From assembly GCA_000165345.1 (NCBI GenBank), contig CM000435.1:704001-768000 (forward strand): DNA of 64,000 nt, given 5' to 3'. Each line of letters begins with the position of its first letter. Positions within the stretch are counted from its first letter, which is position 1. Made by a program: the position numbers. This document shows positions 43,001-46,000 of this stretch, piece by piece.

Positions 43001-46000
43001 AAAGATAACGAGACTATCACTTCTAATTCAAATTTCTTTTCTGCAATTCTTAGCAAAATTAAAAATGGAGTGAAGTTAACCTCAGATAAACAAGCTATAA
43101 GTGAAAGTAAAGAAGAAACTTTTGAAAACAATGAGTTGGAAGCCGAAACTGTAGAAGATGAAGTTCTAACTATGAAACAAGATTCCACTCCTGAACATAA
43201 TCAGTTCTTGGACAAATAGAAATCTTTTAACCCTGAATTAAAATAAAAATTATTATCCCTTTGTATAGTCCATGCCAGTAGGAAAAATTAAATAAAGTTA
43301 AGTAATCATTACAGATTGTTTTAATCGAGTGTTAAATTAGTTTTTTAAATATCAACACAATGATAAGTGAAACTGAGATAAAAACTAGCGTGACCAATGT
43401 TATTCTACAACAGAAGGTAGTGTTATTATTTGTACCGATAACTTCCTGTACCTTTCTGTTCAGGTTAAAGATGTCGGTTGTAGCAAATTCTGTAGTATTC
43501 TTAATTTCTTCAATACTTATGTTGTGTGCTTTAGCCTCGCGGCCAAGCTGTGCTGCTTTATCTGCGATTCTTAACGCCATATTTCCTACTTCTTTTATAT
43601 CTTCATCTATTCTTCTATTTTCCAAACTCCATTCATTAATTTTAGTTTTATCTGAATCACCAATTTCCCTATGCTCAACTTTGTTTGCTGAATCAGGTTT
43701 AAGCAAGAAATCATTTAAAGTTGTTGAATGTGTAATTTTTGAAAATGGATCGGTAAATAATTTATTAAATCTCGATTCAGTTATTTCAATAAACTCCTTT
43801 TCATAATTTTCAATATCAATGTACTTATTATCATCTTTATTCAGCTGATTAATGCGCAAACTGGAAGAATACTTATTGTAAATTTTCCTTAATTCCCGAA
43901 TTTCTATTTTCATTTGACTAATTAAATCCACCAACTTAATTTTTGTCAACAACTTTGGGTGATTCTCGTCGTTTTCAAGATGATCTAAAATTGTGTAAGT
44001 TGTATTATATAATTCAAACAATTTAATCTTGTGTTTTATATATTCTTGTTCAATGCTTGAAACTTCATCAATTTTCACATCAGATTCACATAGGAGTTCA
44101 ATGTGTTTAACACGCTTTAAAAGGTCTTCAATTTCATTAAAACCCCTTGTATACTTCCAGTCCATATTAAATTAAAAAAAAACTTTGCAAAAATATTTGT
44201 CATAAATGGTTGAAACAAAATATATGGATGGATGTTAATTGAACAATTAAACGGGCAAAAAGATTACAAATTTAGCTTTGTTACTCAAATTCCGTCAAAA
44301 GTTAAATGAGGATTATCCAAATTCTGATAGCAACTGATAGTTATATTTTTAAAGTTTTAATATCAGGGCAATATCTACTATGATGATTAAGATCATCTTC
44401 TGGGGTATTCACTCTAGTTGAAGCGCCAGAAGAAAATTTACTTTCATATTGATGTAGTTTTACACGCCATTCTCTATAAAGGTTGTCAAATTCTCTTTTT
44501 GTCAACCTTGTATCACATTTCGGAGTTCTGGGGTCTTCGGATGATCTTTTCTCTAAAGGAACTTGATTTATATAATTCTTGTACTCAGGTAGACTTTTCC
44601 CAATTGCTATCTGCTTTAACCGAGAAATCATTCTTGACGTCAAGGGCTCCTCAGATGCCTTTAGTTCAGTATTCTGACGTACAAAATCGCTCTTATAATT
44701 GCCATACTTTATTAATTCAGTGGATGGGAGTTTCTCAAGAAGAGATGTCAAATCAGAAAATGAAAAAAATCCCTTGTTTGGTGGTGGATCAACCTCATTA
44801 TAGATGTCAAAGTTTTTGCTATCCAAAGTGAAAAGAGAATTTTTGGACTGTATGTATTTAGAGCCTGAATTCAAATTCTTTGCTTCACTCTCTTTTACCT
44901 CGAGCTTGGGTAAATTAGGATGAACCTCAATTGCTGATACAAAATTCTTTTCTTTGACTTTCTTCCCTATCAGCAGTAATATCGATACTTCATAAACTCT
45001 GTGTGGCGTCATCGGATTGCAAAATAATGGAGTGTTGTTATCCAAATTGATCATAAATAATGTATACCACGAGTCAGCTATACGCAGTTATTTTACTCAT
45101 ACAAAACCAGCGATCAGTATCCCGGCGGCATACACAATTTTTTTTACTTTATTAAAATTAACAACAGAAAAGCCTTATAAACAAGTTATAAAAGACTTAA
45201 ATTATTGAATAAAATAGACTAAATATTCAGCAACCTATTTAATTTTAAATATACTAAGTTTACCTGGCTTCATATTGAATCATCTTTCTCGTCCTCTTTT
45301 TGTATAAAATCCTGCATCCGCAAGTTCGGCATCTAACTGCTGCGCCGTGAGATAGCAAACTAACATCAGCACCGCATTCTAAATAATGAAATCATTCAAA
45401 ATTATAACTTTTTAAAAAACTTACCACCACAAATATATGTAACTGGTTCAACCATGCCTTTATTTACATTAACTCCGTTGTTATCTAAAATTGAGGTTGT
45501 TTTACTTTCTGCACCATTCATTGTATTGAAGTTACTTTTTAAAGTTTTAAGAAACCCTCTCAATACAATATATTTTGAATTCCCAAGACTTTAATAGGCT
45601 AGTATAGGCAAAGTCGCGCAAAAAGTCCTAGTTAAAAATATTCATTAGAACAATGCAAATTGGGTACCTACGAGGGAAAACAGACAGTATTGTAAATACC
45701 GCAAAGACACGAACGTTTTGTTTTTTTTTTTTTTTATAACAATTTCAAATTATTTAAGACGTGACATTTAATACCCAAAACTCAATGTATCCATTGCAGG
45801 CCATTAATTCTTATTATTACATATTTTCCCAAAAAAAGAACTAAACTTTTTTTTCCTCAGTTATTCAATGGCCACAATTGAAATGGATTCTGTCGAAGGA
45901 TTTCAGCTGAAGCATGGCTCATTGATTGGCGGTGCAAGGAAAGGCTGTTTATGCTTATCTCTAAGACTTTCAGTTTTTTTACATGGGCTGCTGAATATTA

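What the first reader, a model, noticed from the sequence alone, without database searches (positions are those of the whole stretch)
45260..45521. Unannotated two-exon RPABC4 (Rpb12) gene hidden in an ORF-free gap
The 660-bp stretch between the SLBP-like gene and the next gene has no ORF of 60 aa or more. The minus strand nevertheless encodes a 71-aa protein once a 46-nt GTAAGT...TTATTTAG intron at 45379-45424 is removed. The product is [43 protein letters not shown]. This matches the shared Pol I/II/III subunit POLR2K almost motif-for-motif (YICGEC, RCRxCGxRIxYKKRT, ...AR end). Other small split genes may be missed elsewhere in this genome by the same rule.
Basis: partly seen in the sequence, partly recalled or inferred. 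Interest (0 to 1): 0.7.

Follow-up and report, generated by a model that had tools for sequence, protein, structure and literature searches.

The report
Known Cryptosporidium Rpb12 polymerase subunit gene
The small two-exon gene is real and encodes the shared RNA polymerase subunit Rpb12 (RPABC4/POLR2K) of Cryptosporidium parvum, but it is already annotated with this exact structure (cgd7_3240) and published, so it is an ordinary housekeeping gene.

Summary
The observation reproduces exactly. On the minus strand, 45521-45425 plus 45378-45260, with a 46-nt GTAAGT...TTTAG intron at 45424-45379 removed, gives the stated 71-aa protein.

The protein is an RPABC4/Rpb12 zinc ribbon. It matches Pfam PF03604 at E 7.6e-16 over the full profile, across the splice junction. 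It matches solved Rpb12 chains at E 1e-10 to 8e-17. All four zinc cysteines and the C-terminal YEAR are present.

Comparative data support the splice. The same phase-1 intron, in the Glu codon of CG|EC, occurs in five Cryptosporidium species, Besnoitia and Theileria. Intron lengths and sequences diverge, while the coding part is under strong purifying selection (27 synonymous against 4 non-synonymous codon changes versus C. andersoni).

The gene is not unannotated. The window is identical to C. parvum CP141124.1, where a 262-bp gene with a 71-aa product sits at this position. The exact protein is in GenBank four times, and a partial 49-aa model exists in the original Iowa II record. A 2022 paper lists cgd7_3240 (A3FPP8, 71 aa) as the C. 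parvum POLR2K orthologue.

Verdict: correct reading of the sequence, already known, low interest.

The parts
45425..45521 (-). Exon 1 (97 nt). ATG at 45521-45519. Encodes M1-G32 plus the first base of the Glu33 codon: a variable N-terminal tail (residues 1-22) and the start of the zinc ribbon (VEPVTYICG).
   Evidence: This is the first ATG after an in-frame stop 24 codons upstream. The tail is predicted disordered, pLDDT below 50 for residues 1-22. Orthologues keep an open tail of 18-22 codons.
45379..45424 (-). Spliceosomal intron, 46 nt, phase 1, GTAAGT donor and TTATTTAG acceptor, 15% G+C. It splits the Glu codon of the first zinc knuckle, C-G-|E-C.
   Evidence: The same position and phase occur in C. 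hominis (46 nt), C. canis (50), C. xiaoi (59) and C. andersoni (67), all with GTAAGT...YAG. They also occur in Besnoitia besnoiti (423 nt) and Theileria equi (117 nt). Intron identity to C. parvum is 0.58-0.64 in the three more distant species, against 0.76-0.86 for exon 2.
45260..45378 (-). Exon 2 (119 nt including stop TAA at 45262-45260). Encodes the rest of Glu33 through R71: the second Cys of knuckle 1, knuckle 2 (C49, C52) and the basic C-terminal tail ending QYEAR.
   Evidence: Purifying selection over the last 49 codons: 16/5, 22/5 and 27/4 synonymous/non-synonymous codon differences against C. canis, C. xiaoi and C. andersoni.
45522..45867 (.). 346-bp intergenic region shared with the divergently oriented membrane-protein gene (45868-46659, +). 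It presumably holds both promoters and 5' UTRs. It contains blocks conserved among four intestinal Cryptosporidium species, such as AAATGTCACGTCTTAAAT at 45769-45752, AACGTT.GTGTCTTTGCGGTATT at about 45717-45695, and GGTACC at 45668-45663.
   Evidence: Alignment of upstream regions and gene layout. Promoter function is inferred, not tested.
45055..45259 (-). 205-bp spacer between the Rpb12 stop codon and the start codon of the SLBP-family gene (44341-45054, -). By inference it contains the Rpb12 3' UTR and poly(A) site and the SLBP promoter.
   Evidence: The gene order membrane protein / Rpb12 / SLBP / t-SNARE-like is conserved in five species.

Best explanation
This is the Cryptosporidium parvum gene for RPABC4 (Rpb12, ABC10-alpha, POLR2K), known as cgd7_3240 / CPATCC_003524 on chromosome 7. 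The pre-mRNA is read from the minus strand, and one 46-nt GT-AG intron is removed by the spliceosome. Splicing joins G|AA to complete the Glu codon inside the first CxxC knuckle. The 71-aa product folds as a four-cysteine zinc ribbon (C31, C34, C49, C52), preceded by a disordered tail of about 22 residues and followed by a basic C-terminal strand ending in Arg. By homology with the yeast, human and plant enzymes, it sits on the periphery of RNA polymerases I, II and III as one of the five shared subunits. What is shown here: the sequence, the family match, the conserved intron position, purifying selection, and prior annotation and publication. What is inferred: zinc binding, incorporation into the three polymerases, and use of M1 rather than M23 as the start.
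For: The spliced product is exactly as stated. Pfam PF03604 Zn_ribbon_RPAB4 scores 58 bits against a cut-off of 24, E 7.6e-16, with profile positions 1-32 of 32 matched to residues 29-61, across the junction at residue 32/33. PDB sequence hits are to Arabidopsis NRPB12 (E 8e-17), human POLR2K (1.1e-11), yeast Rpb12 (3.8e-11) and archaeal RpoP/Rpo12 (1.8e-5), all reaching the C-terminal residue. C31, C34, C49, C52 and Y29, I30, E33, R48, G53, R55, I56, K59, R61 are invariant in an alignment that includes human and yeast. The yeast sequence was verified as identical to 1i3q_L. The exact protein is in NCBI under four accessions, named 'RNA polymerase archaeal subunit P/eukaryotic subunit RPABC4'. 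The public record identical to the window carries the same 262-bp gene with a 71-aa product. Orthologues in syntenic positions have the same phase-1 intron in 5 Cryptosporidium species, and the intron position is the same in Besnoitia and Theileria. Codon changes are 27 synonymous against 4 non-synonymous versus C. andersoni. Only 1 of 615 candidate splices gives a zinc ribbon. PMC9705513 Table 1 lists cgd7_3240, A3FPP8, 71 aa as the POLR2K orthologue. The Isaza 2015 supplement gives CHUDEA7_3240/cgd7_3240 identity 0.986, which equals 70/71 and matches the single V18I difference seen here. Baptista 2022 states that the introns of the CPATCC annotation are 100% RNA-seq supported.
Against: No transcript read spanning the junction was inspected here, so RNA support rests on a blanket statement in a paper. 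A search for the spliced 35-mer in JGI metagenome contigs found nothing, which is uninformative because Cryptosporidium cDNA is not expected there. The AlphaFold model is of modest confidence (mean pLDDT 59), and its Foldseek matches to Rpb12 chains have E of only 0.01-0.3. The start codon is not proven, since the older model begins at M23.
Confidence: 0.97

Rival explanations
1. The gene and splice are the same, but translation starts at Met23 (45455-45453). The product would be the 49-aa protein of the original Iowa II partial model, and the first 22 codons would be 5' UTR.
For: XP_001388394.1/EAZ51587.1 is a 49-aa model beginning MVEPVTY. Residues 1-22 are poorly conserved: exon 1 identity is 0.56-0.70, about the same as the intron. 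They are predicted disordered. Arabidopsis NRPB12 is only 51 aa.
Against: M1 is the first ATG after the in-frame stop. All five Cryptosporidium species, and Besnoitia, keep an open, ATG-initiated tail of similar length in AT-rich DNA where stops are frequent. By my estimate there is about a 0.16 chance per lineage of 22 stop-free codons. Yeast Rpb12 has an equivalent 24-residue tail. Every recent annotation uses M1.
Confidence: 0.1
2. The locus is a decaying or non-functional copy (pseudogene), and the functional Rpb12 is encoded elsewhere.
For: Only 64 kb of the genome was examined, so a second copy cannot be excluded from the window alone.
Against: The reading frame, splice sites and all zinc ligands are intact. 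Purifying selection is strong. The locus is syntenic in five species. The protein search returned a single Cryptosporidium parvum protein of this family. The published polymerase inventory lists only cgd7_3240 for POLR2K.
Confidence: 0.01
3. The match is a chance product of choosing one of many possible GT..AG pairs in AT-rich non-coding DNA.
For: The gap holds 615 GT..AG pairs on this strand, and ten give ORFs of 60 aa or more.
Against: Only the proposed pair gives a zinc ribbon. The E-values are 1e-16. Exon 2 alone already encodes the second knuckle and the C-terminal tail (the 32-aa ORF at 45260-45358). The intron position is conserved in seven species.
Confidence: 0.005

Closest known systems
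Cryptosporidium parvum cgd7_3240 / CPATCC_003524 (UniProt A3FPP8; QOY40642.1, WRK33497.1, WKS79011.1, KAL5367639.1)
   Same: Identical: same 262-bp span, same intron, same 71-aa protein.
   Different: Nothing. The finding is this gene. Only the product names differ ('putative transcription activator', 'uncharacterized protein', 'RPABC4').
Saccharomyces cerevisiae Rpb12 / Rpc10 / ABC10-alpha (PDB 1i3q chain L, 70 aa)
   Same: Same length class: an N-terminal disordered tail of about 24 residues, a CX2C...CX2C zinc ribbon and a basic C-terminal strand ending (F/Y)EAR. E 3.8e-11 and 39% identity.
   Different: The Cryptosporidium loop between the knuckles is one residue longer (SLLSHGAAV against SLSRTDAV). 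There is an extra Cys54 after the second knuckle (CGC), and the motif is YKKRT instead of LKART.
Human POLR2K / RPABC4 (58 aa) and Arabidopsis NRPB12 (51 aa; PDB 7eu0_L, 8hil_L)
   Same: The plant protein is the closest solved relative, E 8e-17.
   Different: They have shorter N-terminal tails, and the plant protein also serves Pol IV and V.
Archaeal RpoP / Rpo12 (PDB 4qiw_P, 49 aa)
   Same: Same zinc-ribbon core and the same Pfam family (E 1.8e-5; Foldseek hit 9bct_P).
   Different: It has no N-terminal tail, a different C-terminus and no intron, and it serves a single polymerase.

Membership tests
RPABC4 / Rpb12 / RpoP (Pfam PF03604 Zn_ribbon_RPAB4) | Profile match above the curated gathering score over the full domain | tested here: met
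   58 bits against a cut-off of 24, E 7.6e-16, profile positions 1-32 of 32, residues 29-61.
RPABC4 / Rpb12 / RpoP (Pfam PF03604 Zn_ribbon_RPAB4) | Four zinc-ligand cysteines arranged CX2C-(13-15)-CX2C | tested here: met
   C31, C34, C49 and C52 are invariant in a 10-sequence alignment that includes human and yeast. The first knuckle exists only after the proposed splice.
RPABC4 / Rpb12 / RpoP (Pfam PF03604 Zn_ribbon_RPAB4) | Eukaryote-type basic C-terminal extension ending in ...(Y/F)(E/D)AR at the very C-terminus | tested here: met
   [13 protein letters not shown] followed by the stop codon. PDB alignments run to the last residue of both query and target, and A70 and R71 are nearly invariant.
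RPABC4 / Rpb12 / RpoP (Pfam PF03604 Zn_ribbon_RPAB4) | Zinc-ribbon three-dimensional fold | tested here: inconclusive
   The AlphaFold2 model has mean pLDDT 59, with the core at 70-75. The seven best Foldseek PDB matches are all Rpb12/RpoP chains, but with E 0.01-0.3 and rmsd of about 9 A.
RPABC4 / Rpb12 / RpoP (Pfam PF03604 Zn_ribbon_RPAB4) | Physical subunit of RNA polymerases I, II and III; binds zinc | not testable with these tools
   Inferred from homology to subunits seen in solved Pol I/II/III structures.
Spliceosomal GT-AG intron | GT donor and AG acceptor with consensus extension; removal restores one reading frame | tested here: met
   GTAAGT...TTATTTAG. The spliced CDS is 216 nt with no internal stop.
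Spliceosomal GT-AG intron | Position and phase conserved in orthologues while length and sequence drift | tested here: met
   Phase 1 in the Glu codon of CG|EC in 5 Cryptosporidium species (46-67 nt), Besnoitia (423 nt) and Theileria (117 nt). The intron is less conserved than exon 2.
Spliceosomal GT-AG intron | Spliced junction observed in RNA | not testable with these tools
   No read data were available. Baptista et al. 2022 state that the introns of the CPATCC annotation, which contains this model, are 100% RNA-seq supported. The junction 35-mer is absent from JGI metagenome contigs (uninformative).

The most novel reading that the evidence does not exclude
The most novel reading not excluded is this. 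Cryptosporidium lost the second ancestral apicomplexan intron of this gene but kept the first, in every species examined. The retained intron could therefore be kept for a reason, such as intron-dependent expression of a very short mRNA. The Cryptosporidium-specific features of the protein (a one-residue longer inter-knuckle loop, an extra Cys54, and a variable N-terminal tail) could reflect lineage-specific polymerase contacts. Nothing found here argues for either idea beyond the retention pattern.
Probability: 0.05. Interest if true: 0.2.

Novelty: already known. Interest (0 to 1): 0.05.

Why it matters
It matters little beyond quality control. Rpb12 is an essential, universally conserved polymerase subunit, so its presence in C. 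parvum is expected, and it is already annotated and published. The useful lesson is methodological. An intron-blind ORF rule of 60 aa or more misses short split genes in this compact genome, where about 11% of genes have introns. Prokaryote-style gene calls on the same DNA show the failure directly, for example the 39-aa Logan call P0007 that reads exon 1 into the intron.

Tried and rejected
1. I searched the paper library for CPATCC_003524, XP_001388394, EAZ51587 and QOY40642 and found no hits. The gene was then found under cgd7_3240 / A3FPP8.
2. No supplements of Baptista 2022 are held as text, so RNA-seq support for this particular intron could not be checked gene by gene.
3. An exact search for the spliced-junction 35-mer in JGI metagenome contigs found no hits. 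This is not evidence against splicing.
4. Structure prediction and Foldseek ranked Rpb12 chains first but added little, because the model has low confidence.
5. The Rfam and tRNA scans of the whole window found nothing, so no RNA gene explains the ORF-free gap.
6. I enumerated alternative splices. Nine other GT..AG pairs give ORFs of 60 aa or more, but none restores the zinc ribbon.
7. The plus strand of the gap has only low-complexity spliced ORFs with no family features.

Full report
**Observation**

Reading the minus strand of 44900-45900 and splicing as proposed gives these parts:
- Exon 1 at 45521-45425 (97 nt).
- Intron at 45424-45379 (46 nt, GTAAGTTTTTTAAAAAGTTATAATTTTGAATGATTTCATTATTTAG, 15% G+C).
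- Exon 2 at 45378-45260 (119 nt, ending TAA).

Unspliced, the frame ends at a stop 7 codons into the intron.

The mechanical ORF list shows no ORF of 60 aa or more between 45209 and 45867. The largest pieces there are the exon-1 ORF (53 aa with an upstream TTG) and the exon-2 ORF (32 aa). The ATG at 45521 is the first ATG after an in-frame stop 24 codons upstream.

I enumerated all 615 GT..AG pairs of 20-300 nt on this strand of the gap. Ten give junction-spanning ORFs of 60 aa or more, and only the proposed pair yields a CxxC...CxxC protein.

**Identity of the protein**

- Pfam: PF03604 (Zn_ribbon_RPAB4, 'DNA directed RNA polymerase, 7 kDa subunit') scores 58 bits against a gathering score of 24, E 7.6e-16. 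The whole 32-position profile is matched to residues 29-61, so the match runs straight across the exon junction at residue 32/33.
- PDB sequences: the best hits are Arabidopsis NRPB12 (E 8e-17), human POLR2K (1.1e-11), yeast Rpb12 (3.8e-11), S. pombe and Komagataella Rpb12, and archaeal RpoP/Rpo12 (1.8e-5 and 1.8e-4). The alignments shown for the three best hits (the two plant NRPB12 chains and human POLR2K) end at the last residue of both proteins.
- Alignment: with apicomplexan orthologues, human POLR2K and yeast Rpb12, the four zinc ligands C31, C34, C49 and C52 are invariant. So are Y29, I30, E33, R48, G53, R55, I56, K59 and R61. The C-terminal A70-R71 is nearly invariant.
The human sequence agrees with the stretch printed.
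- Structure: an AlphaFold2 model built on 8 sequences is only moderately confident (mean pLDDT 59, residues 1-22 below 50). Its seven best Foldseek matches in the PDB are all Rpb12/RpoP chains, at E 0.01-0.3. This is supportive but not independent proof.

**Source of the window and prior annotation**

The exact 71-aa protein is already in public databases as Cryptosporidium parvum QOY40642.1, WRK33497.1, WKS79011.1 and KAL5367639.1. Its names range from 'putative transcription activator' to 'RNA polymerase archaeal subunit P/eukaryotic subunit RPABC4'. The original Iowa II record has a spliced but partial 49-aa model starting at Met23 (XP_001388394.1 / EAZ51587.1).

The three neighbouring ORFs are also exact C. 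parvum proteins. The window is identical over 6262 bp to CP141124.1 (GCA_035232765.1). In that record a called gene of 262 bp with a 71-aa product occupies exactly the finding's span. Its straight translation fails, which is what an intron predicts.

The literature agrees:
- Table 1 of PMC9705513 lists cgd7_3240, UniProt A3FPP8, 71 aa, as the C. parvum orthologue of POLR2K/Rpb12.
- The supplement of Isaza et al. 2015 (PMC4637869) lists the pair CHUDEA7_3240/cgd7_3240 at identity 0.986. That equals 70/71 and matches the single V18I difference between P0009 and P0001.
- Baptista et al. 2022 (PMC8744675) state that the introns of the CPATCC annotation, which includes this model, are 100% supported by RNA-seq.

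'Unannotated' is therefore not correct. 'Hidden' holds only for an intron-blind ORF scan.

**Comparative support for the splice**

Orthologues were fetched from C. hominis, C. canis, C. xiaoi and C. andersoni. All lie in the same gene order: membrane protein, Rpb12, SLBP-family protein, t-SNARE-like protein.

In each species exactly one GT..AG intron reproduces the deposited protein. It is always in phase 1, inside the Glu codon of C-G|E-C, and always has a GTAAGT donor and a YAG acceptor. The lengths are 46, 50, 59 and 67 nt.

Against C. canis, C. xiaoi and C. andersoni, identity to C. parvum is 0.64, 0.61 and 0.58 for the intron and 0.86, 0.80 and 0.76 for exon 2. In the last 49 codons the differences are 16/5, 22/5 and 27/4 synonymous/non-synonymous. 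That is clear purifying selection on the spliced frame.

The same intron position and phase occur in Besnoitia besnoiti and Theileria equi. Both also have a second phase-1 intron just before the (M/V)xQYEAR tail, which all Cryptosporidium species lack. The Cryptosporidium gene has thus kept one ancient apicomplexan intron and lost the other, in line with the known intron loss in this genus.

**Mechanism**

Shown here: a minus-strand, two-exon gene; a canonical short spliceosomal intron; and a product that meets every sequence criterion of the Rpb12 family.

Inferred from the solved polymerases containing the homologues:
- The protein binds one zinc ion through four cysteines.
- It is a peripheral subunit shared by RNA polymerases I, II and III.
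- Its N-terminal tail of about 22 residues is flexible.

The start codon is the one open point of the gene model. M1 is favoured for three reasons. It is the first ATG in the open frame. All orthologues keep an open, ATG-initiated tail of similar length in AT-rich DNA. All recent annotations use it. I give about 10% to the 49-aa alternative starting at M23.

**Other checks**

Rfam and tRNA scans of the window found nothing. A search for the spliced junction in JGI metagenome contigs found nothing, which is uninformative. The 346-bp divergent intergenic region upstream contains blocks conserved among four intestinal species. These may be promoter elements and were not pursued.

**Verdict**

The gene is a known, annotated, published housekeeping gene. 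Novelty: already known. Interest: low.

Noticed in passing
window 45522-45867 (e.g. 45769-45752, ~45717-45695, 45668-45663): The 346-bp divergent intergenic region between Rpb12 (-) and the membrane-protein gene (+) contains short blocks conserved among C. parvum, C. hominis, C. canis and C. xiaoi: AAATGTCACGTCTTAAAT, AACGTT.GTGTCTTTGCGGTATT and GGTACC. These are candidate shared promoter or 5' UTR elements. An A-run at about 45735-45721 differs in length between C. parvum and C. hominis.
   Followed up: partly
L010 (Besnoitia besnoiti) 501-1694; L011 (Theileria equi) 501-847: Other apicomplexan Rpb12 genes have two phase-1 introns: one at CG|EC and one just before (M/V)xQYEAR. Cryptosporidium keeps only the first, so the second was lost in this genus.
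   Followed up: yes
protein P0008 (Babesia duncani, 111 aa, 'bifunctional DNA-directed RNA polymerases I...'): After ...YKKRAYR the model runs into 51 unrelated residues instead of the xxQYEAR tail. The break is exactly where Theileria and Besnoitia have their second intron. This looks like a missed intron in that annotation.
   Followed up: partly
window 45402-45521 (-); protein P0007: A 39-aa protein from a Logan assembly (1762-bp contig) is exon 1 read through into the intron (…YICGGKFFKKL). It is a prokaryote-style gene call on unspliced DNA and shows how intron-blind calling truncates this gene.
   Followed up: no
window 44341-45054 (-) and 45868-46659 (+): The neighbouring gene models differ between public annotations. 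The SLBP-family protein is 237, 236 or 223 aa, reflecting alternative start choices. The membrane protein is 263 or 258 aa in different C. parvum and C. hominis assemblies.
   Followed up: no
window 45260-45521; XP_001388394.1 / EAZ51587.1: The original Iowa II GenBank record still holds a partial 49-aa model named 'transcription activator'. Several records name the 71-aa protein 'putative transcription activator' or 'uncharacterized protein'. The product naming is inconsistent, although the structure is right.
   Followed up: yes
window 1-64000: There are no tRNA genes and no Rfam family matches at gathering threshold anywhere in the 64-kb window.
   Followed up: yes
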